DNA of 64,000 bases from Escherichia coli (GTDB lineage: Bacteria > Pseudomonadota > Gammaproteobacteria > Enterobacterales > Enterobacteriaceae): assembly GCF_016903815.1 (NCBI RefSeq), contig NZ_CP069972.1. One strand, given 5' to 3'. The notes below the pieces were generated by a model. It was not told the origin of the DNA, searched no databases, and was given only the letters and a program-made list of their open reading frames with translations. Of the stretch, positions 1,506-28,310 are shown piece by piece. How positions within the stretch are numbered: position 1 is the stretch's first letter; each line of letters begins with the position of its first letter. Position numbers and translations under genes: made by a program.

Positions 1506-1533
1506 AAGCTGACGTCAGAACAGGACTGAAAAA

Positions 1534-2118
1534 ATGAATAAGTTACCGGAAAATTCAGACCAGACGAAAAACGTCAAAAAATCACCATCCATAACCCGCA
1601 TAGCCACCCGGGGGATTATTAACATTTTTGTTCCTCTGATGGAGACTCGCCTGATAACGAATTCTGTACAGCATATGCTGGAACAACAAAAACGCAGGCT
1701 GGACAGATTTCGTCAGGTAAATAATAAAAAGGCGCAACTCCACCTCACGTGGGAAGAAGCTCTGCAGGCCAGCCATATGTCAGTAGACGATCTGGATCGT
1801 CGTTTCCGCCGGCGCAGAACAGTATGGCGATTCTGTTGCTGGAGTCTGCTGGCCATCGCTTTGTTTCTCAGTGGTATGCTCTTTGCCGCCTCTTCATTAC
1901 CTCTTACGACTCTGGTACGCGCCATCAGCACTCTTGTGTTGATACTGTCAGGCGTCGCTCTTTGTGCTTCCAGAGCACTGATTGTTACATACCGCCTCTG
2001 GCAGTTGCATGAACGAAAAGTCAGCGAACCCGAGCAGGGGACTTTCCGTGATTTTCTGAACGACCGCAATGGCTGGCGCAATGCCACATTAATTGCCGTA
2101 ACCAGTAAACAATACTGA
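1534..2118 (+). CDS. traX: TraX-like small membrane transfer protein (194 aa)
   Basis: RBS AGGA before ATG; two or three hydrophobic helices in C-terminal half; position between traW-like and traY-like genes. Confidence 0.45.
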   Translation: MNKLPENSDQTKNVKKSPSITRIATRGIINIFVPLMETRLITNSVQHMLEQQKRRLDRFRQVNNKKAQLHLTWEEALQASHMSVDDLDRRFRRRRTVWRFCCWSLLAIALFLSGMLFAASSLPLTTLVRAISTLVLILSGVALCASRALIVTYRLWQLHERKVSEPEQGTFRDFLNDRNGWRNATLIAVTSKQY

Positions 2119-2145
2119 TCACGTCCAGATGCCAGTACCACTGGC

Positions 2146-4383
2146 ATGTCGCCATCCCCCTTAATTAAATCCTGTGTGGCCTTTGCCCATACGCAATTCT
2201 ATTCCGGAGTTACTGTGAAAATTTTACTTCGCGCACTCTGTGCAGGCCTTGCTATATCCTCACTGCCGGCAATGGCTTCAGTGACCTATCAGGATATTGT
2301 GTCTGCCGCAACCAATCCTGACGATCTGTCTCGCCAGGCGCTGGTCACGATATTCGGTGATGTAGTCACCAATCCACTGTCAACCAGCGCCCCCACTCTG
2401 ATCGGAAGCATGTTCGGGGCGTTCAACAGTATCATCGCCGTACTTGCCGTTGTCTGGTTTATGTTCATTGGTATCCGTCATGTTGTGCGTTCGGGGCATC
2501 AGGGACAGGTATTCAGCACCGGACGCGATATCGTCGGCACACTGAGTGTCGTTGCAGGTTTTCTGATGATCGTTCCAACCGGAAATGGCTGGAGTATCGC
2601 TCAGCTCATTATGTTATGGGGCGCATCGATAATGGGGGTTGGGTCCGCCAATGTGATGGTGCAACTTGCCGCTGATAATATCGCAAATGGTTATTCAATG
2701 ACTGTACAGCCAGTTCAGGCATCCACACGAACAGCAGCGCGTGGCATTTTTGAAATGGAACTGTGTAAGTATGCGGTTAACGCAGGACTAAATGATTTTA
2801 ATCAGACGGTCAAATCCTCGACTTCACTGATGACAGAATCAGCTAAAACCGCCAGTGGTAATTACACTGTCACGGTATCCAATGGCAGCGGTATCTGTGG
2901 TTCAGCCAGCCTGTCAGTAGAAGGAAACGGAACAACAGATCAATCGACGATTGGAAAATTCTTTAATCCCTTCAGTAAAAACGAATACAGCGGTGTTATC
3001 TCAGCACAACGTGCAGCCATGGATAATATGATTAGCGACATGGACAACGCTGCCAGTGAGTTTGTGACAACATTTCTGGAAAAAAGAAATTCTGGCAACG
3101 GAACATTGCCGGATATCGAGACACGGATTCAGAGAGCAGCCGATGAGTATGAACGCGCTGTACAAAAATCGCTACCTATTGATAACGGAGAACAATCCAG
3201 GAAAGAAGCTCTCAAGTCTTATCTCACAACCTATGGATGGGTGACGCTTGGCGCGTGGTATCAGACCTTTGCCACTGCTAACCAGCGTCTGGCAGAGCTG
3301 GCTGACAGAGCTCCAGCTGTAACTTCAATGTCATCACTTGGGGAAGTTGGCGATACTGATTTATTTAGTGCTGTTATGGGGGCATACAAGACTCAATTAC
3401 AGAACTCCACATATACTCCAACGATAGGAACGATAACAACTCAAGATGAAAGTAATGCAGCTAATAGCACAGACCCACAAAGTGTGGTCATGAAAAGTAT
3501 AGCGCCAACCATATTAAAATGGACAAACCAAGCTGCTACTGAATGGTCAGGAACAGGAACAACCAGCAACCAAGTTAACCCATTAATTAAGATGAAAAAC
3601 ATCGGCGATTATACATTGGGTACAACAGAAATTCTCTGGACAGGATATACAACTGTCAGAGTTCTCGCGACAATGGGTGATAACTCTATTTTCGGAAAGG
3701 CTGTTAATTTGTTCTCTGGATTACCTAAAGGATTTGTTGCTCTGCTGGATGCTGCAGCTCCCCCAATATATTTCTTGTTGTTCCTGTTGTTTTGTGCGGG
3801 TTTTTCCTTATCAATTTACCTACCATTTATACCATTCATTTTCTGGATGACAGGCATTGGGAACTGGATAGTAAGCGTATTAATAGGATGCACCGCCGGG
3901 CCTCTGTGGGCAGCAACACATCTAGGAACATCAGAGGACAGAGGAAGTCGAGCAGCTTACGGATATATATACTTAATTGACAGCATGATAAGACCACCTC
4001 TCATGGTATTCGGTTTCTTTTTTGCCTCTGTCGCCATCATTGCCGTCGGCACAATATTAAACTCACTGTTTGGCGCAGCACTAGTTAACGTACAGGTAAA
4101 ATCATTAACAGGGATATTCAGCCTTGCCGGGTTCCTGCTAATTTACGCCCGTATGTGTACAACGTCTGTAGCTGCAATATTTGCTTTACAAGCATATCTT
4201 CCTGACCATGTTATCAATTTCTTGGGTGGTAGAGATGGTGTAAATACTCTTGGCAACCTCACCTCATCAGTAAAAGATATTTTTGCAGGTTCTAATAGAA
4301 ATATTAGACACAGCCCTGGAGTTAGAGAGGACAGACTAAAAAATGTCACAAAGGATGATAATAAAGATGGAATAAAAGGATAA
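2146..4383 (+). CDS. traY: TraY-like polytopic inner-membrane transfer protein (entry-exclusion target in IncI1)
   Basis: 745-aa ORF with many hydrophobic segments in N- and C-terminal thirds; alternative GTG start at 2215 has a better RBS (GGAG) and gives a signal-peptide-like N-terminus; excA-like gene directly downstream. Confidence 0.55.
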   Translation: MSPSPLIKSCVAFAHTQFYSGVTVKILLRALCAGLAISSLPAMASVTYQDIVSAATNPDDLSRQALVTIFGDVVTNPLSTSAPTLIGSMFGAFNSIIAVLAVVWFMFIGIRHVVRSGHQGQVFSTGRDIVGTLSVVAGFLMIVPTGNGWSIAQLIMLWGASIMGVGSANVMVQLAADNIANGYSMTVQPVQASTRTAARGIFEMELCKYAVNAGLNDFNQTVKSSTSLMTESAKTASGNYTVTVSNGSGICGSASLSVEGNGTTDQSTIGKFFNPFSKNEYSGVISAQRAAMDNMISDMDNAASEFVTTFLEKRNSGNGTLPDIETRIQRAADEYERAVQKSLPIDNGEQSRKEALKSYLTTYGWVTLGAWYQTFATANQRLAELADRAPAVTSMSSLGEVGDTDLFSAVMGAYKTQLQNSTYTPTIGTITTQDESNAANSTDPQSVVMKSIAPTILKWTNQAATEWSGTGTTSNQVNPLIKMKNIGDYTLGTTEILWTGYTTVRVLATMGDNSIFGKAVNLFSGLPKGFVALLDAAAPPIYFLLFLLFCAGFSLSIYLPFIPFIFWMTGIGNWIVSVLIGCTAGPLWAATHLGTSEDRGSRAAYGYIYLIDSMIRPPLMVFGFFFASVAIIAVGTILNSLFGAALVNVQVKSLTGIFSLAGFLLIYARMCTTSVAAIFALQAYLPDHVINFLGGRDGVNTLGNLTSSVKDIFAGSNRNIRHSPGVREDRLKNVTKDDNKDGIKG

Positions 4384-4432
4384 TTTTAATAAAACAACCT
4401 TGCCATAAACACTCAATCGCATTAAAATATCG

Positions 4433-5107
4433 ATGAGTGTTTATGGAGGGTTTATTATGCAAATGGTAAAAACAATCAATAGATATCCTGCTTGGTGGAC
4501 ATTATATTACGCCCTTAGATTTATATATTTCATAAGCATACCAGTGTTATCCATTTTTATTCTTTTCGGCGTGCTCTCCATTACATCTTCAAGATATGTG
4601 ACGCAAGAAGATTATATTTATACTTGCGTCTGTCTGTTTTTACTAATTGCCCCTGCAATATTGATGTATTCCCGAGCAAGCTCAAGAAAAGACAAAATAA
4701 AAAAAATTGTCGCGGAGATAAAAAACACCGGTTTTTATTCACCTGACAAAGAATATGAGGGACTATCTTTTACTCAGGGCGTCTATTTTGGCGTGGATAC
4801 CAAAAAAGGCACTATGCTGTATGCTCGTGCTTACCCTGGAAATATAATGGATATTATCGGCTTTGACATTGACAACTTCACACGCACTGTGACCGACGCC
4901 AAGACACTAGAGATTTATACAAAATACATAAATATACCAATGGTCTCAATTCCGTCAGGATGCATCCATCCCAAAATGATGGCGGATACAATGCATGCAA
5001 TGGCAGAAAGAGGATATGATTACCCTGTCGACTTTCCTCGCCTAATTCAGGAGAAGCGTAAGGAGTGGGAGCAGATTGCAGGCATGCCTGTAGCCGAAGT
5101 ATTTTAA
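4433..5107 (+). CDS. excA: Entry exclusion protein ExcA-like
   Basis: 224-aa ORF immediately after traY-like gene with N-terminal membrane segments; SD GGAGGG favours internal ATG at 4457 (216 aa). Confidence 0.5.
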
Positions 5108-16755: not shown

Positions 16756-17091
16756 ATGGCGTCTAAAAAATTTTACTCAGATGATGACATCCAGCTGGCA
16801 AAAGCTGCTTTATCGGAATTGCCAGACCTCACCGCTCAACGGAAAACATTGCGTGATTTTCTTGATGCCATTCGTGATGACATCATTATCCTGGTAAGGA
16901 CAAAGGGTTATACACTGACAGATGTTCGTGACACGCTCAAAAATGCAGGATATGAAGTAGGAGAGAAAGCACTTCGTGACATTATTCGGGAAGCAGAATC
17001 GAAAAAACCATCCCGCCGTTCTTCCTCTAAAACAGCACCTAAAAAGACAGACTCAGGCAGGAAAGATGGCATCGATATGAACAACAATTGA
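16756..17091 (+). CDS. Hypothetical protein adjacent to oriT (112 aa)
   Basis: ATG at 16756 after GGAGAGA; basic Ser/Lys-rich C-terminal tail; unusually on the + strand for a leading-region gene. Confidence 0.4.
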   Translation: MASKKFYSDDDIQLAKAALSELPDLTAQRKTLRDFLDAIRDDIIILVRTKGYTLTDVRDTLKNAGYEVGEKALRDIIREAESKKPSRRSSSKTAPKKTDSGRKDGIDMNNN

Positions 17092-17176
17092 TGTGACAAT
17101 GTCACATTGTGTTCTGAGATTATGATGATTACAGAAAAAAAAGCCCCGGCATAAATACCTGGGCTTTTCTGTTTAA

Positions 17177-18025
17177 TCAGACTCGTGGCGGCAATGCACC
17201 AGGATAATGCCGTGCAATAATATCATTCAGTTTTTCAACAAGGTCAGAACGCTTAAAGACAATGTGTACGGTCCCTTTCTGGTAGCCACGCACCGTAAAA
17301 TATTCCCCTTCTAACAGCTTACCGACATTGTCACCGTTCCCGAGAAATTCACCATACTGCGCCCCGATGCTGTTCCTGAAGTCAGGAACGTTGCGCCCCT
17401 CCAGCAGATAAAACGGACGTACCAGGTCATCCAGTGCCTCCCGTCCGCTGCAGTCCAGCGTCACACGCCCGTTACTCCAGCGGTACAGTAGGTTTTCAAT
17501 AATTATTTTCTTACCCAGACGGCAGGGATTATTGGTTCTGTAATCCCATGACAATTTCCGGTAGACATCAATCAGCCCCTGTTCAAACGTCTGCATCTTG
17601 CTGGCATTAAGATGGCGGAATGTTGCCAGTACATTGTCCAGGGTGATTTCAGGACAGGTGTCGCTCATCAGCTGGCTGTTCCACTCATCACGCTGGCATG
17701 AACTCATGAAGGTGTACATGCCCGTATCTGTCATCAGGCGGTCCCAGATTTTCCGGTCGGCAAGACGGGTGATATTCCTTTTCGCTTCTTCCGTCTTATC
17801 CATGCGACGAACGGAATCAGTCACGCAGTCTTCAAACCCGTAAAGAAAAATATCACCTGACGCATCGAGCAGAATCTTGCGCGCTGTCGCCAGGCATTCC
17901 ATCGCCTGCATGAACAGTGCAATACCTTCGTTACGCTGCGCGATGATGCGGTCGATAGCTACAGACGGAATAACATCTGTCGTGCCGGCAGTATTCAGGT
18001 CAGCAGTGGGTAAAGTCTGATTCAT
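17177..18025 (-). CDS. Leading-region protein of unknown function (282 aa), first gene behind repeat copy A
   Basis: ATG at 18025 with SD GGAGA; large hairpin repeat immediately upstream; no recognised motif. Confidence 0.55.
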   Translation of the reverse strand: MNQTLPTADLNTAGTTDVIPSVAIDRIIAQRNEGIALFMQAMECLATARKILLDASGDIFLYGFEDCVTDSVRRMDKTEEAKRNITRLADRKIWDRLMTDTGMYTFMSSCQRDEWNSQLMSDTCPEITLDNVLATFRHLNASKMQTFEQGLIDVYRKLSWDYRTNNPCRLGKKIIIENLLYRWSNGRVTLDCSGREALDDLVRPFYLLEGRNVPDFRNSIGAQYGEFLGNGDNVGKLLEGEYFTVRGYQKGTVHIVFKRSDLVEKLNDIIARHYPGALPPRV

Positions 18026-18075
18026 CACATTGTCTCCTCATCGTCACGACTGCCGGGTCAGCCAGGTCATTTCCC

Positions 18076-18386
18076 GGAGGAGCGAAGCTCCTTCTGCCGT
18101 CCGGGTCTTCGGGGATTTCCCCGCAGTGGACCTTTCCGACGGGGGACGCTCACCACGTCACGGGGCAGTTGTCCGGGGGCAGACGCAAAAGTTTTTGACG
18201 CCTGCGGCAAAAAGTTTTGTGGCTGGTACATCTCTCCCCTGGACGACTGAAACGGGATGTGGTCATGTATGTACCCCCGGAAAGTCCGTCTGCGGAGAAC
18301 AGGCCGCAGTGCGGCGGCAGACAGGCAGAGACAGCTGCGCCATCAGGCGCAGTGGCCTTACACACCGTAAGGTGTGCAGGGAGCGC
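18076..18386 (-). promoter_or_regulatory. Family-1 hairpin repeat, copy A (ssDNA-promoter-like, Frpo/ssi-type)
   Basis: Shares about 300 bp with 21469-21964 and 27812-28310, including inverted arms CCCCGCAGTGGACCTTTCC / GGAAAGTCC(A/G)...GGGG and TTGACGC...GCGGCAAAAAGTTTTGTGG. Confidence 0.6.
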
Positions 18387-18501
18387 CGCATACGGCGCGA
18401 CTGAAGAAAAACGACGGCACAACAATGGCATGTGGTGGTCACTGGCACACCACTCCCGCACAGGTGAAAACAGAGAAAACCGCACGACATTTACAACCAA
18501 A

Positions 18502-18594
18502 AAAAGTGAAATTTCTTCACTTTTTCACGCTTATTTTTCGCGTTGATTTGGTGATTATGATGATAAAATAAAGTGAAATTTTTTCACTTTTTCA
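18502..18594. promoter_or_regulatory. Two palindromic operator-like sites overlapping the promoter of the XRE gene
   Basis: AAAAAGTGAA-N5-TTCACTTTTT (18502-18526) and AAAGTGAA-N6-TTCACTTTTT (about 18570-18594) about 70 bp apart, the second abutting the ATG at 18605. Confidence 0.5.
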
Positions 18595-18604
18595 AAGGTG
18601 TTTT

Positions 18605-18856
18605 ATGACCGGCTGGGAACTGCGAATCTGGCGAAAAAGCATGCTCTGGTCACGCGAAAAAGCGGCCAGAGAATTTGGCGTGACGCAGAGAACATGGCAC
18701 GCCTGGGAAAATGCGGAACAGGTGGACGTCACCGTCTGGAGGACCACCCAGGCACTTTCAGTCCGTGACCTGCTGCCTCACATGCAGGGGATGCGTAAGG
18801 CAGATATCATCAGGCGACTGGAAAATGAACTGGGGGAAACGGCAGGGAATGTGTGA
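18605..18856 (+). CDS. Small XRE/Cro-like HTH regulator (83 aa)
   Basis: HTH-like segment WSREKAAREFGVTQRTWHAWE; preceded by paired palindromes; convergent with the Rpn operon. Confidence 0.5.
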   Translation: MTGWELRIWRKSMLWSREKAAREFGVTQRTWHAWENAEQVDVTVWRTTQALSVRDLLPHMQGMRKADIIRRLENELGETAGNV

Positions 18857-18886
18857 GCGTGATTCACAGCCTGGCTGAATGCCAGG

Positions 18887-19069
18887 CTACTGCTCATCAG
18901 GAAACAGCTTTTTCAGTTCTTCACCGGAAAGTCCCGTGACCTCCTGAATCCGTTCCAGCGGCCAGCCTATATCCCGAAGCCGGCAGGCTATTTCCCGCGC
19001 CACTTCAAGAGCCCCTTGTTTAAAACCCTCGTCGAAACCTTTCTGTATAAGACGTTCTGCAATCGTCAT
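18887..19069 (-). CDS. Stand-alone RpnS-like small protein (60 aa), homolog of the Rpn C-terminal domain
   Basis: MTIAERLIQKGFDEGFKQGALEVAREIACRL...TGLSGEELKK aligns with the last 65 aa of the adjacent Rpn; own SD AGGAG; the longer 81-aa ORF would be encoded through the rpn terminator hairpin. Confidence 0.5.
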   Translation of the reverse strand: MTIAERLIQKGFDEGFKQGALEVAREIACRLRDIGWPLERIQEVTGLSGEELKKLFPDEQ

Positions 19070-19092
19070 GCTGTTTGCTCTGCTCCTGCTGA

Positions 19093-19119
19093 CAAAAAAG
19101 CCCGGCATTTTGCCGGGCT
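19093..19119 (-). terminator. Intrinsic terminator after rpn
   Basis: Minus-strand hairpin AGCCCGGC-loop-GCCGGGCT followed by U6. Confidence 0.5.
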
Positions 19120-19131
19120 TTGTGGTTCTCA

Positions 19132-19329
19132 TCAGTGAGTGATTTTCTTCAGTTCGTCATCGGAAAGTCCGGTAGCCTGCTTAATCTGCTCCGGCGTCAT
19201 CCCCATTTTCTGAAGCTGGCACGCAATAGCCAGGGCTTTTTCAAGCGCTCCTTCCATGCGTCCTTCCATGCGTCCTTCCATCCTGCCTTCCTGGCGACCT
19301 TTTTGCTCAAGACGTTCTGCGATAGTCAT
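19132..19329 (-). CDS. Possible intragenic RpnS-like ORF (in-frame internal start, 65 aa)
   Basis: In-frame ATG at 19329 preceded by GAGGAT at -6 to -11 (CATGAGGATAAACTGATG); product corresponds to the Rpn C-terminal domain. Confidence 0.3.
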   Translation of the reverse strand: MTIAERLEQKGRQEGRMEGRMEGRMEGALEKALAIACQLQKMGMTPEQIKQATGLSDDELKKITH

Positions 19330-20058
19330 CAGTTTATCCTCATGCTGCGGCAGACGCTCAGCCAGCGCCCGCATAAATTCCGGTGATACAGAGTCCCCTG
19401 CGTTAACGATGTAATGAATCAGAACACGCACCTGCTCGTCTGAAATTTCCACCATGACCTGCGGGAGTTTGTCCAGCAGCTCCATCATGTCACGATGGCG
19501 GATATGCTTCATCAGCAGCGTCAGTGCGGCCATCCGGCGATGGTTCATGATTTCATTGTCATCAACGACAGTGATATCAACCAGCGGAAACGGCTTTGTG
19601 TATATTTTAGCCGCAAGTGCCGGATTCTCAAAACAGTCCAGCCAGTTCATGCTGTACGGGTACGGGCTGCGCTCACCGTGATAGAACAGCACCGGAATCA
19701 CCAGTGGCAACGTTTTGTGCTGCTCCAGATGTCTCTGCATCGCCGCCACACTGTAGCGTAACATGCGAAAAGGCATGTACAGATTTTCTGTGCTCTGGTG
19801 CTCGATGAGCGTATAAACATAACCATCTTCACCCCCGGTGGTTTTCACGCTCCAGAGGATATCGCTGGCGTACTGATGCAGGTCCGGCTCAACAAAGGTG
19901 GCGGGTTCCAGCTTCAGCGTGGACAGGTCGCACAACTGCCGGTACTCCGCAGGAAGATGCAGTTCCAGAAAATCCCTGGCAACGTCGGGATTCGCCAGGA
20001 ACGACCGGAACGCGGCATCATGCGGCGTGGGCGTTGTGGTGTTTTTCTTCTTACTCAC
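19132..20058 (-). CDS. Rpn family recombination-promoting nuclease (YhgA-like, PDDEXK), 308 aa
   Basis: YhgA-like N-terminal region (LIEHQS...) and conserved C-terminal domain (IAERLEQKG...TGLSDDELKK); GTG start overlapping the stop of the upstream ORF. Confidence 0.6.
   Translation of the reverse strand: MSKKKNTTTPTPHDAAFRSFLANPDVARDFLELHLPAEYRQLCDLSTLKLEPATFVEPDLHQYASDILWSVKTTGGEDGYVYTLIEHQSTENLYMPFRMLRYSVAAMQRHLEQHKTLPLVIPVLFYHGERSPYPYSMNWLDCFENPALAAKIYTKPFPLVDITVVDDNEIMNHRRMAALTLLMKHIRHRDMMELLDKLPQVMVEISDEQVRVLIHYIVNAGDSVSPEFMRALAERLPQHEDKLMTIAERLEQKGRQEGRMEGRMEGRMEGALEKALAIACQLQKMGMTPEQIKQATGLSDDELKKITH
19249..19284. repeat. 12-bp tandem repeat x3 inside rpn (encodes EGRMEGRMEGRM)
   Basis: TCCTTCCATGCG repeated twice plus variant TCCTTCCATCCT; in frame. 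Confidence 0.6.
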
Positions 20059-20444
20059 GGTTCCTCCATCAAATCAGCAGCATCGCAGCAATCATCGCCC
20101 AAATCCCCACAACCGAGAGGACAGCAATTGCGTTCAAAGCCATGACAACAATAGCCGCGTTCTGAGTCACGGCGTATTTCTTCAGCAATCTCTTCTGCGG
20201 AAAGGTAATCAAACTCCTCACGGGCCAGTTCCAGGACCAGTAGATGTTGTTCTGTCGGCAATGTGGCCACAAAATTATCAATAGCAGCACTCAAACGTCG
20301 CTGATATAGCTCATAAACAAGACCACAACGGGGCATTAGTTCTTCGGATAATAGTTCCAGTTTTGAGCGAATTCTGTCAGCGTTGAAAGTGACTTCATCA
20401 AAAGACATATGAAAAGCTTTGTCAGTATCAAAACAAGACTTCAT
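20055..20444 (-). CDS. Hypothetical protein with Cys-rich acidic C-terminus (129 aa), coupled to rpn
   Basis: ATG at 20444 with SD GGAGA; C-terminal CCHGFERNCCPLGCGDLGDDCCD; stop TGA overlaps rpn GTG start (GTGA). Confidence 0.45.
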   Translation of the reverse strand: MKSCFDTDKAFHMSFDEVTFNADRIRSKLELLSEELMPRCGLVYELYQRRLSAAIDNFVATLPTEQHLLVLELAREEFDYLSAEEIAEEIRRDSERGYCCHGFERNCCPLGCGDLGDDCCDAADLMEEP

Positions 20445-20620
20445 TGTTATCTCCAGCCCTCCCGGGCCCTGAATGAAAGAGAATCTGTTTCCCTTTTCTG
20501 TTTTTTGTGGAGACACCATGCAACACAGACGTCGTGATGTTTTTCATCTTGCTCACGGTTCCTCCTGGTAAAGTACCTGAACACATCCTGCCACCTGCAC
20601 AGGCAGACGGCAGGGGTTAA

Positions 20621-20887
20621 TCAGTGACAGACCCGTTCAATTTCAAGCGCGCGGAGCAGGTGGCCCCATTCGCTGACTTTCATGGCGGGGATACGTACCC
20701 GCTTCTGCTCACTGCAGCGTCTGGCGATATGACCGCCCATCGCCAGGACGTCCGGGTTAATCTCATCCGGTGCCAGTTCCTGGCGTCTGAAGCGGGTATG
20801 GCGGTGCAGGGGTTTGTTCTCCCGCAGGCACTCTTCACGCAGACGCTTTACATACTCGGCGGTTGCGAAGATAATTGATGGTCTCAT
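20621..20887 (-). CDS. Hypothetical leading-region protein (88 aa)
   Basis: ATG at 20887 with GGAG 9 nt upstream; basic protein; no recognised domain. Confidence 0.4.
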   Translation of the reverse strand: MRPSIIFATAEYVKRLREECLRENKPLHRHTRFRRQELAPDEINPDVLAMGGHIARRCSEQKRVRIPAMKVSEWGHLLRALEIERVCH

Positions 20888-20979
20888 GGCATAATCTCCA
20901 TAGTTAGTGAATGAGATGCCGGACTTCCGTACGGGGAAGCGCCAGCGGAGAAAGGCAGGGTTTATCGCCCTGCTTTTTT

Positions 20980-21414
20980 TCATTCCGGACAGCGACGCAG
21001 TGCCAGCGCGAGCGCTTTCATCTTCCAGCCTTCCGGCGTGCGGTACATCACCTTCCAGTAGCCGTCGATGAACACATAATGGAAGCGCACCTCTTCAGTG
21101 CTTTCCGTGGCGATGGCCTCCCTGAAAGAACGGTACTCACGCGCCTCACTGTCCATCCGGAAACCACTGTCACGTCCGTAATAAGCCGTCACACCGTCCA
21201 CCGGGTTCTGAAGCGTATGCCCGGCGGGTTTGTCGCAACGGGGACCGAGGCAACGGATATCACCGTGTTCAACCAGGGCTTCGGCCTGCTGACCGGTGGC
21301 ATAGTGGGTATGCAGGATGCGACCGTTCCAGGTCGGCTCACCGTGCAGGTGGCAGTAAACGGTACGGAACACCCCGTCGCGGCAAAAAACGGAAATCGTG
21401 CTGCTGACTGTCAT
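20980..21414 (-). CDS. Hypothetical leading-region protein (144 aa) behind repeat copy B
   Basis: ATG at 21414 with SD GGAGA; the longer 251-aa ORF in the track reads through the GC-rich repeat and is rejected. Confidence 0.5.
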   Translation of the reverse strand: MTVSSTISVFCRDGVFRTVYCHLHGEPTWNGRILHTHYATGQQAEALVEHGDIRCLGPRCDKPAGHTLQNPVDGVTAYYGRDSGFRMDSEAREYRSFREAIATESTEEVRFHYVFIDGYWKVMYRTPEGWKMKALALALRRCPE

Positions 21415-21468
21415 GAAAACGTCTCCTTCTGCTGAATCAGGTCGCCGGGCCGACCGGTTGCTCCCCCG

Positions 21469-21964
21469 GAGGGGCGAAAGCCCCTTCTGCCGTCCACTTC
21501 TTCGGGGTTTCTCCCCGCAGTGGACCTTTCCGATGGGGCAGCGACTGCCACGGCACGGGGCAGTTGTCCGGGGGCAGACGCAAAAGTTTTTGACGCTTGC
21601 GGCAAAAAGTTTTGTGGCTGGTACATCTCTCCCCTGGACGGCTGAAACGTGTTGTGGCCGCTTCAGCCCCCGGAAAGTCCACAGCGGGGAAACAGGCCGC
21701 AGGGGGGGCGGCGGAAGGGCAGACAACTGCGCCATCAGGCGCAGTTTCCTTACACACCGTCAGGTGTGCAGGGAGCGCAGGTCACGGCGCGACAGAGGCG
21801 GCGCGACCGGAACGGTCGCTGCAAGCCTGGTTTTTCAGACATCGGACCGTAGCGGCAGCCCGAAACCGCGCCAGCGGGTTCGGCGGAGACTGGCGGGTGC
21901 GCCAGCAGCTGCCTGTCGGAGTCGGGCCTGACGACCGGATGCCGCCAGGCAGCCGGGAGCCGAA
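21469..21964 (-). promoter_or_regulatory. Family-1 hairpin repeat, copy B
   Basis: About 500 bp shared with copy C and about 300 bp with copy A; long imperfect inverted repeats. Confidence 0.6.
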
Positions 21965-22146
21965 GGGTGTCCCCGCCCCCGGGAGTCAGAACAACAGAAA
22001 CGACAAAACAGAAAAATGCCTCACACTATGACAGGCAGGAAGGGTAGCGCCGCAGGCGCGGCCCTCCTGTATTTCAGGCAGGCGTAAGCCTGCCAGGGTT
22101 TTCCGGGGGCCTGGCAGGCCATCCCCCCGCCGGAGCGGGGAGTAAA

Positions 22147-22647
22147 TCACCGACGGAACACATGACCGTCAATAAAGGTGAAGGAGTCCAGGAATAAATC
22201 CCGCGCATACGCCTCATAGTCAAAATAGAGCGCCACCGTCTCCGGCACGTCAGCCAGCAGGCCGGTATCACTGACGAACTCAACCGCAAAAGCCTCCTCA
22301 CTGTCAGCCTCGCCCCACCAGGCATCGCGGAAGCTGTCAAAATCCGTCTCACCGGTATCATCCACCCAGAGACGATAAGCCTCTTCGCAGCCTTCATCCC
22401 GCGCCTGGCGGAAGCCTTCAACCCAGGCCCAGTTGATATGGCATTCAGAGGCCATATTCCCCGGGAATCCCTCATAATCCTGAAACATCAGTTCCGGGTC
22501 GGTTTCATCCTGGTGAAGGGCACGGCAGGCGGCGAAAAAGTCGCGTTCATCATCAAACGTTGTCAGGTCAAACCAGCGGCCAGCGATGCTTCCACAGTTG
22601 TATTTGTGCCAGGTTCCAACGTATACAGCAGGTGCAACAACAGACAT
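22147..22647 (-). CDS. ardA: Antirestriction protein ArdA (166 aa)
   Basis: MSVVAPAVYVGTWHKYNCGSIAGRWFDLTTFDDE...; acidic; SD GGAGGA; matches ColIb-P9 ArdA (recollection). Confidence 0.85.
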   Translation of the reverse strand: MSVVAPAVYVGTWHKYNCGSIAGRWFDLTTFDDERDFFAACRALHQDETDPELMFQDYEGFPGNMASECHINWAWVEGFRQARDEGCEEAYRLWVDDTGETDFDSFRDAWWGEADSEEAFAVEFVSDTGLLADVPETVALYFDYEAYARDLFLDSFTFIDGHVFRR

Positions 22648-22659
22648 TCCCGAATCCTC

Positions 22660-22992
22660 CATAGTCACATGTTCTGCGACACCGGGCGGTGCCGTGCCTC
22701 CATCTTTGCCGGGCCTGCAGGGATGCAAGGGCGCAAGGGAAGCCGCAGCCCGACGCACACGGCTGGCGGGAGTTGGAGGGTGAGACCGCGAAATCTGAGC
22801 GGGTGAACGACCGGAAAATCACGGCAGACGGGAAGGAGGGACCGGGTGACCGCAGCGGTTCATCTTACCTTGCATCCCGCCCGCAGAAGCCCGGCTACGA
22901 TGGAGGCACGGCACAGCCCGCACACGACACGGCGGCCACATAACTGAAAACCCACAAGGCCATGCCCCGCATGGCCGGGTAAAAGCGGAGCC
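22660..22992 (-). promoter_or_regulatory. Family-2 hairpin repeat, copy 1 (upstream of ardA)
   Basis: About 330 bp nearly identical to 31955-32286; about 45-nt inverted arms (GTGCCGTGCCTCCATC...GATGGAGGCACGGCAC) separated by about 150 nt. Confidence 0.6.
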
Positions 22993-23108
22993 GGCGGCGA
23001 CGTCCTTATTCCGGCGAGAGCAGGGAGCACACCGCATGATCTCCAGACCACCCCTGGAACGAAACGATCATGACCGGCATGTCCCTGCGTAAAATATACA
23101 TGCCTGGT

Positions 23109-27811: not shown

Positions 27812-28310
27812 GAGGAGCGAAAGCTCCTCCTGCCGTCCACTTCACAGGGGTTTCTCCCCGCAGTGGACCTTTCCGATGGGGGCCCGTTTACCGCCTCACG
27901 GGGCAGCTGTCCGGGGGCGGACGCAAAATTTTTTGCCGGGTTCATGGCTAAAAATTTTGTGGCCGGTGCATCTCACCCTGGACAGATGGAACGGGAGGGG
28001 GTTACGTCTGCCCCCCGGAAAGTCCACAGCGGGGAAACAGGCCGCAGGGGGGGCGGCAGGAGGGAGGACTGCTGCGCCATCAGGCGCAGTTTCCTCACAC
28101 ACCGTCAGGTGTGCAGGGAGCGCAGGTCACGGCGCGACAGGGGCGGCGCGACCGGAACGGTCGCTGCAAGCCCGGGTTTTCACGCATCGGACCGTAGCGG
28201 CAGCCCGAAACCGCGCCAGCGGGTTCGGCGGAGACTGGCGGGTGCGCCAGCAGCTGCCCGTCGGAGTCGGGCCTGACGACCGGATGCCGCCAGGCAGCCG
28301 GGAGCCGAAG
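27812..28310 (-). promoter_or_regulatory. Family-1 hairpin repeat, copy C (upstream of ssb)
   Basis: Near-identical to copy B over about 500 bp; homology ends at about 28310, right where the group II intron begins. Confidence 0.6.

What the first reader, a model, noticed from the sequence alone, without database searches (positions are those of the whole stretch)
18887..20444. Coupled three-part module next to oriT: Cys-rich ORF, Rpn nuclease with possible internal RpnS start, and a separate RpnS-like gene
Seen in sequence: a 129-aa ORF with a Cys-rich acidic tail (CCHGFERNCCPLGCGDLGDDCCD) whose stop overlaps the GTG start of a 308-aa Rpn (YhgA-like) protein; inside rpn an in-frame ATG (19329) with a good SD would give a 65-aa product equal to the Rpn C-terminal domain; after an intrinsic terminator a separate 60-aa gene encodes a second copy of that domain. 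Established knowledge (recollection): Rpn proteins are toxic DNA endonucleases that can act in phage defence and are inhibited by small C-terminal-domain proteins (RpnS) made from internal starts. Inference: a self-contained toxin/antitoxin-like unit in the leading region with an extra partner (the Cys-rich ORF) that I cannot place.
Basis: partly seen in the sequence, partly recalled or inferred. Interest (0 to 1): 0.7.

Follow-up and report, generated by a model that had tools for sequence, protein, structure and literature searches.

The report
Rpn toxin-antitoxin locus plus CcgAII gene
This is the already described Rpn nuclease/antitoxin locus: a toxic DNA nuclease, an internally started antitoxin and a second small antitoxin-like gene, here in the early-entering region of an IncI-type conjugative plasmid; the cysteine-rich gene in front of it is an unrelated plasmid gene (CcgAII family) that most sister plasmids lack.

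Summary
All three ORFs exist, on the minus strand: Cys-rich ORF 20055-20444, rpn 19132-20058 (GTG, 4-nt overlap with the upstream stop) and a small gene 18887-19069 after a strong hairpin terminator.

Rpn is a bona fide Rpn/YhgA-like PD-(D/E)xK protein with all RpnA catalytic residues. Its internal ATG 19329 aligns exactly with the experimentally proven RpnA internal start. The small gene is a diverged standalone copy of the Rpn C-terminal domain.

Both tails vary among plasmids by whole 4-amino-acid repeats. Gene-within-gene antitoxin, separate downstream copy, 4-aa repeats and plasmid-borne examples were all published by Zhong et al. 2023 (PNAS).

The Cys-rich ORF belongs to CcgAII, a named but uncharacterised leading-region protein of IncN plasmids R46/pKM101. 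Only about 510 of about 1,900 IncI-complex plasmids carrying this rpn have it. It occurs without rpn in IncN and Vibrio plasmids, and IS insertions in it leave rpn intact.

Modest additions:
- The operon follows one of three Frpo/ssi-like single-strand promoter elements.
- Repeat numbers in the internal and standalone antitoxins vary independently.
- No full-length Rpn carries the standalone tail type.

Low interest.

The parts
21440..21830 (-). Frpo/ssi-like single-strand-DNA promoter element, one of three copies in the window. It lies upstream (in the direction of transcription) of the operon ygcA-ygdA-ccgAII-rpn-Ss.
   Evidence: Three copies 85-86% alike at 18073-18404, 21440-21830 and 27812-28175. 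The + (template/T) strand folds as ssDNA at -127.9 kcal/mol, z = -8.7. Equated by inference with ssi1-3 of ColIb-P9/pESBL (PMC12672017).
20980..21414 (-). ygcA homologue, first gene of the operon (context only).
   Evidence: Annotated CDS in identical records; PHROG 1987 E = 5e-21.
20621..20887 (-). ygdA homologue, second gene of the operon (context only). In R64-type plasmids it is followed directly by rpn.
20514..20565 (-). Degenerate duplicate of the rpn ribosome-binding site and first ~14 codons (VSKMKNITTSVLHG). It is a scar showing that the ccgAII cassette was recombined into the start of rpn.
   Evidence: 52-nt direct repeat, 79% identical to 20016-20067. Sequence read. In some plasmids it is fused in frame to ccgAII (P0125).
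20055..20444 (-). CcgAII-family gene (the 'Cys-rich ORF', 129 aa): a predicted four-helix core plus a C-x-H-x5-CC-x3-C knuckle and a lineage-specific DDCCDAADLMEEP tail that runs into the rpn start.
   Evidence: tblastn and alignment to CcgAII of R46 and others. AF2 model pLDDT 73. AFDB50 matches are only CcgAII or 'plasmid-related protein' entries. No Pfam, NCBIfam, PHROG or PDB match.
19132..20058 (-). rpn (ygdB in R64 nomenclature): full-length RpnL, a 308-aa PD-(D/E)xK nuclease-family protein.
   Evidence: PF04754 E = 2e-78. TIGR01784 180 bits against a cutoff of 52. Catalytic residues D14, D66, E86, Q88, R98 align with RpnA D11, D63, E82, Q84, R94 (PMC5350276).
19604..19631 (-). Candidate internal sigma-70 promoter inside rpn (TTGAGA-16-TAAAAT, 10/12). 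Weak evidence only.
   Evidence: Consensus scan. The scan found 3 sites where shuffles gave 1.7, so this is not significant on its own.
19337..19341 (-). Shine-Dalgarno GAGGA for the internal start.
   Evidence: An AGGAG/GAGGA/GGGAG box lies 6-8 nt before the homologous ATG in RpnA-E and in the plasmid gene. Identical 20-nt context in 52 of 54 loci.
19132..19329 (-). Internal ORF rpnS (65 aa), the predicted intragenic antitoxin, in frame with rpn.
   Evidence: The ATG aligns with RpnA M244, the proven internal start (PMC10400941).
19249..19296 (-). Four-amino-acid repeat tract, RQEG followed by RMEG x3, in helix 1 of the Rpn tail.
   Evidence: Tail lengths of 49-73 aa in steps of 4 among 55 metagenome contigs and plasmid records.
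19094..19121 (-). Intrinsic terminator hairpin plus T-tract immediately after the rpn stop.
   Evidence: -24.4 kcal/mol, z = -4.4. Exact 41-nt match in 55 metagenome contigs. L068 carries a paired change (A..T to G..C) that keeps the stem.
18887..19069 (-). Standalone RpnS-like gene (RpnSs type, 60 aa).
   Evidence: Matches TIGR01784 positions 215-273 and PHROG 12274. 51% identical to the internal product. pN/pS about 0.30 over 23 alleles. Present in 1340 of 5426 complete E. coli genomes, almost always on plasmids.
19016..19039 (-). Four-amino-acid repeat tract, GFDE GFKQ, in the standalone gene.
   Evidence: Alleles of 52-76 aa in steps of 4, i.e. 0-6 repeats.

Best explanation
The core of the finding (19132-20058 plus 18887-19069) is an Rpn toxin-antitoxin/defence locus of the kind described by Zhong et al. 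2023.

Proposed mechanism:
- The full-length protein (RpnL) is a PD-(D/E)xK DNA endonuclease that is toxic when alone.
- Ribosomes also start at the internal ATG 19329 and make the 65-aa C-terminal domain (RpnS). RpnS binds RpnL through the long repeat-bearing helix and blocks it.
- The 60-aa gene after the terminator is a separately encoded, long-diverged paralogue of that domain (RpnSs type, like ypaA after rpnE). It is kept by selection, probably made at a low level by terminator read-through, and acts as a second or alternative RpnS-like binder.

Context: the locus is the distal part of a leading-region operon (ygcA-ygdA-[ccgAII]-rpn) that follows an Frpo/ssi-like single-strand promoter. 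It is therefore probably transcribed in a burst as the plasmid enters a new cell, and afterwards serves the plasmid as phage defence and/or addiction.

The Cys-rich ORF is a CcgAII-family leading-region gene of unknown function, probably metal-binding. In one IncI sub-lineage it was recombined into the very start of rpn and so became translationally abutted to it. It is a passenger in the same early operon, not a component of the Rpn system.

Shown here: homology, conserved catalytic residues, conserved internal start and SD, repeat variation, purifying selection, presence/absence pattern.

Inferred: toxicity, antitoxin action, early expression, defence role.
For: Rpn identity:
- PF04754 E = 2e-78; TIGR01784 180 bits against a cutoff of 52; PHROG 3300 E = 1e-104.
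- Residues D14, D66, E86, Q88, R98 align with the mutationally defined RpnA D11, D63, E82, Q84, R94 (PMC5350276).

Internal start:
- ATG 19329 aligns with RpnA M244, whose mutation abolished RpnAS (PMC10400941).
- The SD box is conserved in all five K-12 paralogues and in the plasmid gene, and in 52 of 54 related loci.

Hallmark repeats:
- Rpn tails of 49-73 aa and standalone proteins of 52-76 aa differ by whole 4-aa units.

Standalone gene:
- It is closest to the neighbouring Rpn tails (54-61%) rather than to K-12 Rpn tails (34-51%), as Zhong et al. reported for RpnCSs and RpnESs.
- pN/pS is about 0.30, and the ORF is intact in 50 of 60 loci examined.

CcgAII as a passenger:
- About 507-514 plasmid records carry it, against about 1,899 carrying the rpn locus.
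- R64-type plasmids have ygdA followed by the same GGAGGAACC-GTG rpn start.
- A 52-nt duplicated rpn 5' scar marks the insertion.
- R46 and Vibrio pVOWZ2 have ccgAII without rpn.
- An ISEc12 insertion leaves rpn intact.

Early expression:
- Three Frpo/ssi-like copies are present, with strong ssDNA folding.
- pESBL-EA11 has the same ccgAII-rpn-Ss layout. In that plasmid ssi1-3 were shown by RNA-seq and 5' RACE to drive zygotically induced operons (PMC12672017).
Against: - No experiment on this particular allele was found. I could not establish whether it is the 'RpnP2' of ECOR13 tested by Zhong et al., because the supplements are not held.
- A strong terminator sits between rpn and the standalone gene, and no promoter was detected for the latter, so its expression is unproven.
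- Repeat numbers of the internal tail and the standalone protein are uncorrelated (Spearman -0.20, p = 0.17, n = 50). The Rpn tail can be swapped for a different type while the standalone gene stays (L068, L020). Given that a one-repeat mismatch abolished inhibition for RpnC, the standalone protein may not be a cognate inhibitor of its neighbour.
- The rpn operon itself is not named among the induced genes in the text I could read.
- PADLOC 2.0 has no model that matches.
Confidence: 0.8

Rival explanations
1. True three-component module. The CcgAII-like protein would be a functional partner of Rpn, for example a metal- or redox-sensing regulator or co-antitoxin, made in fixed ratio with RpnL by translational coupling.
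For: - The stop and start overlap by 4 nt, GTGA.
- The arrangement is stable in about 510 plasmid records and 13 of 36 informative loci.
- The IncI form has an extra CC-containing tail created by the fusion to the rpn start.
- It is present in the well-studied pESBL-EA11.
Against: - It is absent from about 73% of plasmids with the same rpn (N-terminal domain near-identical, 2 aa differences) and the same small gene.
- rpn has the same SD and GTG without it.
- CcgAII occurs alone in IncN R46 and a Vibrio plasmid.
- IS-disrupted copies persist with intact rpn.
- Its presence shows no link to particular repeat alleles.
Confidence: 0.08
2. The standalone small gene is only a relic: the 3' end of an older rpn left behind when a new rpn-plus-terminator cassette recombined in. 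It would be neither expressed nor functional.
For: - It lies directly behind a strong terminator with no detectable promoter of its own.
- Its SD-like AGGAG is 13 nt from the ATG.
- No full-length Rpn anywhere carries this tail type; the best full-length matches are 35-49% identical.
- rpn tails at this site are demonstrably swapped by recombination.
Against: - pN/pS is about 0.30 over 23 alleles.
- The ORF is intact in 50 of 60 loci examined.
- It is maintained in 1340 of 5426 complete E. coli genomes.
- The homologous chromosomal case, ypaA/RpnESs, is translated (PMC10400941).
- Active in-frame expansion and contraction between 0 and 6 repeats mirrors that of functional RpnS.
Confidence: 0.1
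3. Anti-defence or competition role. Because the locus is in the leading region, RpnS and/or the standalone protein would be delivered early to neutralise Rpn toxins of the recipient or of rival plasmids. Alternatively RpnL would attack resident DNA.
For: - It is located in an anti-defence-rich leading region (ardA, psiA/B, ssb, methyltransferase-like DUF4942) behind an ssDNA promoter-like element.
- Orphan antitoxins are over-represented in leading regions (PMC11541004).
- The standalone protein's repeat number is uncoupled from its neighbour's.
Against: - The standalone protein is only 34-51% identical to K-12 RpnA-E tails.
- It has essentially no chromosomal nucleotide-level relatives: 28 chromosomal places against 1955 on plasmids.
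- No full-length Rpn has a matching tail.
- RpnS action is highly specific.
Confidence: 0.06
4. rpn is a transposase ('ISNCY family transposase' or 'Transposase_31' in some annotations) and the module is a mobile element.
For: Best NCBIfam name by score is 'ISNCY family transposase' (339 bits, but the cutoff is 583, so not met). PHROG 3300 is labelled 'transposase'.
Against: - The NCBIfam score is below cutoff.
- The locus sits at one fixed site in about 1,900 plasmids.
- No terminal inverted repeats or target duplications are known for the family, and there is no autonomous PD-(D/E)xK transposase (PMC10400941).
Confidence: 0.01

Closest known systems
RpnL/RpnS gene-within-gene toxin-antitoxin systems (E. 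coli RpnA-E and plasmid RpnP2; Zhong et al. 2023, PNAS, PMC10400941; Kingston et al. 2017, PMC5350276)
   Same: - PF04754/TIGR01784 nuclease domain with the same catalytic residues.
- Internal ATG and SD at the homologous position.
- Three-helix C-terminal domain with variable 4-aa repeats.
- Plasmid-borne examples are explicitly reported.
   Different: - About 55-60% identity to the K-12 paralogues by eye from the alignment; not computed.
- A GTG start.
- Sits in a conjugative-plasmid leading region behind an ssDNA promoter-like element.
- I could not verify whether it is identical to the tested RpnP2.
rpnE-ypaA (RpnESs) and rpnC-rpnCSs: separately encoded downstream RpnS copies (Zhong et al. 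2023)
   Same: A small standalone gene immediately downstream of rpn, beginning MTIAERL. It has 4-aa repeats and is most similar to the neighbouring rpn tail.
   Different: - Much more diverged from its neighbour: 51-61%, whereas YpaA and the RpnE tail are visibly far closer.
- Separated from rpn by a strong terminator.
- Its repeat number varies independently of the neighbour's.
- No full-length Rpn with this tail type exists in the libraries searched.
CcgAII of IncN plasmids R46/pKM101 (leading-region 'ccg' genes; function unknown)
   Same: 53-57% identity. Shared CGLxYELYQRRLS and FDYL..EEIAEEIR..D.E.G.C(C/S)HG....CCPLGCGDL motifs. Located in a leading region near ardA.
   Different: The IncI form is 129 aa rather than 106 aa, with a longer N-terminus and an extra DDCCDAADLMEEP tail produced by fusion to the rpn start. 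In R46 there is no rpn neighbour.
Frpo/ssi single-strand promoter operons of F, ColIb-P9 and pESBL-EA11 leading regions (PMC12672017; Bates et al. 1999, cited there)
   Same: Three ~330-390-nt elements that fold into long ssDNA hairpins, each upstream of a leading-region operon on the strand transcribed toward oriT. pESBL-EA11 has the same gene order.
   Different: Equivalence to ssi1-3 is inferred from copy number, position and folding, not aligned to published ssi sequences. Induction of this particular operon was not confirmed in readable text.

Membership tests
Rpn / YhgA-like (PF04754, TIGR01784) PD-(D/E)xK nucleases | Transposase_31 / Rpn family domain above the curated threshold | tested here: met
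   PF04754 E = 2.3e-78, residues 11-207. TIGR01784 180.4 bits against a cutoff of 52.1. The equivalog models for RpnA and 'ISNCY' were NOT met (321 and 339 bits against 583), so it is a family member, not an orthologue of RpnA.
Rpn / YhgA-like (PF04754, TIGR01784) PD-(D/E)xK nucleases | Catalytic residues equivalent to RpnA D11, D63, E82, Q84, R94 | tested here: met
   D14, D66, E86, Q88, R98 in the MAFFT alignment with RpnA-E. Residue roles from PMC5350276.
Rpn / YhgA-like (PF04754, TIGR01784) PD-(D/E)xK nucleases | DNA endonuclease activity, toxicity, SOS induction | not testable with these tools
   Needs expression and biochemistry.
RpnL/RpnS gene-within-gene toxin-antitoxin | In-frame internal start with SD at the position of the proven RpnA iTIS (M244) | tested here: met
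   ATG 19329 aligns with RpnA M244. GAGGA lies 7 nt upstream, and homologous SD boxes occur in RpnA-E. The context is conserved in 52 of 54 loci.
RpnL/RpnS gene-within-gene toxin-antitoxin | Hypervariable 4-amino-acid repeats in the first helix of the C-terminal domain | tested here: met
   RQEG/RMEG units: tails of 49, 53, 57, 61, 65, 69 and 73 aa. An alternative GIQQ-repeat tail occurs in L020 and L068.
RpnL/RpnS gene-within-gene toxin-antitoxin | Internal promoter giving a short transcript | tested here: inconclusive
   One 10/12 sigma-70-like site at 19631-19604, but the scan is not above the shuffle expectation.
RpnL/RpnS gene-within-gene toxin-antitoxin | RpnS is synthesised, binds RpnL and blocks toxicity | not testable with these tools
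   Needs tagging, co-expression and pull-down.
RpnSs (separately encoded RpnS copy) | Small ORF immediately downstream of rpn, homologous to the Rpn C-terminal domain | tested here: met
   TIGR01784 positions 215-273, E = 1e-7. BLASTP against the internal product: 51%, E = 4e-16. Weak match to the RpnAS crystal chain 7TH0_A, E = 0.036.
RpnSs (separately encoded RpnS copy) | Groups with the neighbouring rpn tail rather than with other Rpn tails | tested here: met
   54-61% to the plasmid Rpn tails against 34-51% to K-12 RpnA-E/YpaA. No closer full-length protein among 1.84 billion representatives.
RpnSs (separately encoded RpnS copy) | Cognate inhibitor of the adjacent RpnL, which for RpnC required the same repeat number | tested here: not met
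   Repeat numbers are uncorrelated across 50 loci (Spearman -0.20, p = 0.17). The same standalone allele is paired with different Rpn tail types. This tests co-variation only, not binding.
CcgAII family (IncN leading-region protein) | Sequence homology across the whole core, including the C-x-H-x5-CC-x3-C motif | tested here: met
   tblastn 55-57% to R46 and other IncN ccgAII. In the 22-sequence alignment C99, H101 and C108 are invariant and C107 and C112 are at least 90% conserved. AFDB50 hits are CcgAII entries, E down to 1e-7.
CcgAII family (IncN leading-region protein) | Location in a plasmid leading region | tested here: met
   The window gene lies between ardA and oriT. R46 ccgAII lies next to ccgAI and ardA.
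CcgAII family (IncN leading-region protein) | Control by CUP elements/ArdK, as in pKM101 (from my own knowledge of Delver and Belogurov 1997) | not tested
   No CUP consensus was available to me. The IncI copy appears instead to be in an ssi-driven operon.
Obligate three-gene module (ccgAII + rpn + small gene) | Co-occurrence of the three genes wherever this rpn occurs | tested here: not met
   About 510 records with ccgAII against about 1,900 records with rpn and the small gene. Of 36 informative loci, 21 are R64-type without it, 13 have it and 2 are other.

The most novel reading that the evidence does not exclude
The standalone 60-aa RpnS-like protein would not be the antitoxin of its neighbour. 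It would be an independently evolving 'orphan' factor delivered from a zygotically induced leading-region operon. It might be an immunity or anti-addiction protein against Rpn toxins of competing IncI plasmids or of the recipient, or a modulator that sets when RpnL is released. The independent expansion and contraction of its repeats would then record a plasmid-versus-plasmid or plasmid-versus-host arms race, separate from the phage-driven one proposed for RpnS.
Probability: 0.1. Interest if true: 0.55.

Novelty: already known. Interest (0 to 1): 0.2.

Why it matters
The result mainly tidies annotation.

- The IncI 'ygdB/transposase_31' gene is an Rpn toxin with an unannotated internal antitoxin ORF.
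- The small downstream gene is over-called by PGAP as 81 aa through a terminator.
- The 'CbiX/hypothetical' Cys-rich gene is CcgAII.

The locus is very common: the small gene is in about a quarter of complete E. coli genomes. It sits on the plasmids that spread ESBL genes, so it is a convenient natural system for two questions Zhong et al. left open: what the separately encoded RpnSs proteins do, and what drives repeat variation.

The two observations that go slightly beyond the literature I could read would need wet-lab work to become interesting:
- The two repeat tracts vary independently of each other.
- A toxic nuclease gene is placed behind a single-strand promoter that fires on plasmid entry.

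Tried and rejected
- PADLOC: no model for Rpn, only noise-level hits for the other ORFs.
- Cys-rich ORF: nothing in Pfam, NCBIfam, PHROGs or PDB by sequence. Foldseek against PDB with the AF2 model found nothing (best E = 3.5). AFDB50 returned only family members, so no functional lead beyond a four-helix core plus a Cys/His knuckle.
- Pfam on the 60-aa protein: nothing significant. PF27070, listed in precomputed hits, is apparently not in the Pfam copy scanned here.
- Rfam on 17000-23000: no family.
- The terminator scan did not list the obvious hairpin after rpn, so I folded it directly.
- Supplements of Zhong et al. and of the pESBL transcriptome paper are not held. I therefore could not check whether this allele is RpnP2, or read the fold-induction of this operon.
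- 'Standalone protein mimics a host chromosomal Rpn tail' was considered and rejected.
- 'ccgAII-rpn adjacency recurs independently in Vibrio pVA1-type plasmids', which carry both families, was considered and rejected: they are not adjacent there.
- I did not attempt a heterodimer prediction. Only single-chain folding is available, and the paired alignment would be shallow.


Full report
**What is in the sequence**

The window matches IncI-complex conjugative plasmids at 100% identity. An example is NZ_CP024254.1 (IncK2/Z, MOBP, MPF_I). The finding lies in the leading region, about 2.4 kb from nikA/oriT, among ardA, psiA, ssb and a DUF4942 methyltransferase-like gene. All ORFs of the finding are on the minus strand.

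- Cys-rich ORF, 20055-20444, 129 aa. GGAG lies 6 nt before the ATG.
- rpn, 19132-20058, 308 aa. Its GTG overlaps the upstream TGA as GTGA.
- Hairpin plus T-tract at 19121-19094. As RNA it folds at -24.4 kcal/mol, z = -4.4.
- A 60-aa ORF, 18887-19069.
- The in-frame ATG at 19329 is preceded by GAGGA and 7 nt.

RefSeq's 81-aa call for the small gene starts at the ATG that overlaps the rpn stop and reads through the terminator. Other records annotate 56-64 aa from MT(I/L)AERL.

**The Rpn part**

The 308-aa protein is a clear Rpn/YhgA-like family member. Pfam PF04754 scores E = 2e-78, and TIGR01784 scores 180 bits against a cutoff of 52. It stays below the equivalog cutoffs for RpnA and for 'ISNCY transposase'.

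Aligned with E. coli K-12 RpnA-E, fetched from NC_000913.3, it keeps D14, D66, E86, Q88 and R98. These are the counterparts of RpnA D11, D63, E82, Q84 and R94, whose mutation abolishes or alters activity (PMC5350276).

The internal ATG aligns exactly with RpnA M244. Zhong et al. proved M244 to be an internal translation start whose product, RpnS, binds and inhibits the full-length toxin (PMC10400941). An AGGAG, GAGGA or GGGAG box sits 6-8 nt upstream in all five K-12 genes and in the plasmid gene. The 20-nt context is identical in 52 of 54 related loci.

**The small downstream gene**

It matches the last 59 positions of TIGR01784. It is 51% identical to the internal 65-aa product and weakly matches the RpnAS crystal chain 7TH0. 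Zhong et al. already describe such separately encoded copies ('RpnSs'), for example ypaA after rpnE, on chromosomes and on plasmids.

I pulled 55 metagenome contigs with the exact terminator sequence, plus several plasmid records.

- Across these the Rpn tail is 49-73 aa and the standalone protein 52-72 aa. The protein database shows standalone forms up to 76 aa. Lengths always change in steps of four residues, as RMEG and GFK(E/Q) units. This is the family's hallmark.
- The standalone core has pN/pS of about 0.30 over 23 alleles.
- It is present in 1340 of 5426 complete E. coli genomes, with 1955 places on plasmids and 28 on chromosomes. It is therefore a maintained gene rather than debris.
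- It is closer to the neighbouring Rpn tails (54-61%) than to K-12 tails (34-51%).
- No full-length protein among 1.84 billion representatives carries a tail more than about 50% identical to it.

**Two points beyond the published description I could read**

First, the repeat numbers of the two tracts are uncorrelated (Spearman -0.20, p = 0.17, n = 50).

Second, the Rpn C-terminal third can be exchanged wholesale. In L068 residues 1-186 are identical and the rest is a different GIQQ-repeat tail, while the standalone gene is unchanged.

A one-repeat mismatch abolished inhibition for RpnC. The standalone protein may therefore not be a matched inhibitor of its neighbour. This remains unexplained.

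**The Cys-rich ORF**

It has no Pfam, NCBIfam, PHROG or PDB sequence match. By tblastn, however, it is 55-57% identical to ccgAII of IncN plasmids such as R46. R46 CcgAII ends ...DYCSHGIERNCCPLGCGDLDDY, so the Cys/His motif is a family feature.

A 22-sequence alignment gives invariant C99, H101 and C108, with C107 and C112 at least 90% conserved. The motif is C-x-H-x5-CC-x3-C. A conserved CGLxYELYQRRLS box is also present.

AlphaFold (pLDDT 73) predicts four helices at residues 22-95, followed by a low-confidence Cys-rich tail. Foldseek finds nothing in the PDB. In AFDB50 it finds only CcgAII or 'plasmid-related' proteins from gamma- and beta-proteobacteria.

The function remains unknown. A metal-binding knuckle is my inference.

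**Is the Cys-rich ORF coupled to Rpn?**

The evidence says no.

- About 1,899 plasmid records carry the rpn locus. Only about 507-514 carry ccgAII.
- In R64-type plasmids ygdA is followed directly by the same GGAGGAACC-GTG rpn start, and the Rpn N-terminal domain is near-identical.
- Of 36 loci with enough upstream sequence, 21 are R64-type, 13 have ccgAII and 2 are other.
- A 52-nt degenerate duplicate of the rpn SD and first codons lies upstream of ccgAII, at 20514-20565 against 20016-20067. This shows the cassette was recombined into the rpn start. The extra DDCCDAADLMEEP tail is read-through into the rpn leader.
- R46 and a Vibrio plasmid have ccgAII with no rpn neighbour.
- ISEc12 insertions in ccgAII coexist with intact rpn.

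**Context and likely mode of expression**

Three Frpo/ssi-like elements occur in the window, at 18073-18404, 21440-21830 and 27812-28175. The middle one precedes ygcA-ygdA-ccgAII-rpn on the transcribed strand and folds strongly as ssDNA (-127.9 kcal/mol, z = -8.7).

pESBL-EA11 has the same arrangement. In that plasmid the three class-1 hairpins (ssi1-3) drive operons induced up to about 500-fold within 15 min of transfer (PMC12672017).

Early expression of this operon is therefore likely.

**Verdict**

The Rpn nuclease, the internal RpnS start and the separate RpnS-like gene are real and correctly interpreted. They are also already described as a class, including plasmid-borne cases with phage-defence activity (RpnP2).

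The Cys-rich ORF can now be placed as CcgAII. It is a lineage-specific neighbour, not a partner.

Novelty is low. What remains of interest is the unexplained independence of the two repeat tracts and the placement of a toxic nuclease in a zygotically induced operon.

Noticed in passing
window 20514-20565 vs 20016-20067: A 52-nt direct repeat, 79% identical. The upstream copy is a degenerate duplicate of the rpn ribosome-binding site plus first ~14 codons. It marks where the ccgAII cassette was recombined in. In some plasmids this remnant is fused in frame to ccgAII (171-aa form, P0125).
   Followed up: partly
window 18073-18404, 21440-21830, 27812-28175: Three copies (85-86% alike) of a ~330-390-nt element that folds into a long ssDNA hairpin. 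They are presumably the ssi1-3/Frpo-type single-strand promoters of IncI leading regions. Each sits upstream of a minus-strand operon (the DUF4942 gene, the ygcA-rpn operon and ssb).
   Followed up: partly
window 18499-18527 and 18566-18594: Two 29-nt direct repeats, each containing the palindrome GTGAAATTTCTTCAC. They bracket the promoter region of the plus-strand HTH gene (ygeA homologue, 18605-18856), which converges on the small Rpn-like gene. They look like operators for autoregulation.
   Followed up: no
L068 (CP057695.1) 3501-4442 vs window 19132-20058: The Rpn protein is mosaic. It is 100% identical over residues 1-186, then switches abruptly to a different C-terminal third with GIQQ repeats. 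The downstream small gene and flanks stay the same. L020 and L037 carry a related alternative tail.
   Followed up: partly
window 18887-19132 (RefSeq WP_001260883.1): PGAP's 81-aa call for the small gene starts at the ATG overlapping the rpn stop and translates the terminator hairpin. Newer RefSeq records name the gene 'RpnC/YadD family protein'. The internal rpnS ORF is not annotated in any record seen.
   Followed up: yes
window 20055-20444 in other records: The CcgAII-family gene is labelled 'cobalamin biosynthesis protein CbiX' in many GenBank and UniProt entries. Nothing found here supports that name.
   Followed up: partly
L006 (CP125065.1) 1514-3816; also H71 NZ_CP048373.1: An IS21-family ISEc12 is inserted within the ccgAII-like gene of some IncK2/Z or IncI plasmids, leaving rpn and the small gene intact.
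   Followed up: partly
window 20980-21735 (-): The mechanical 251-aa ORF here runs through the ssi-like element and is an artefact. The annotated gene is the 144-aa ygcA homologue (20980-21414), which some records label 'PndC' and which matches PHROG 1987.
   Followed up: no
window 17177-18028 (-): A DUF4942 protein (ygfB homologue) with PHROG matches to DNA methyltransferases. It lies directly behind the oriT-proximal ssi-like element and is a candidate early-expressed methyltransferase-like anti-restriction gene.
   Followed up: no
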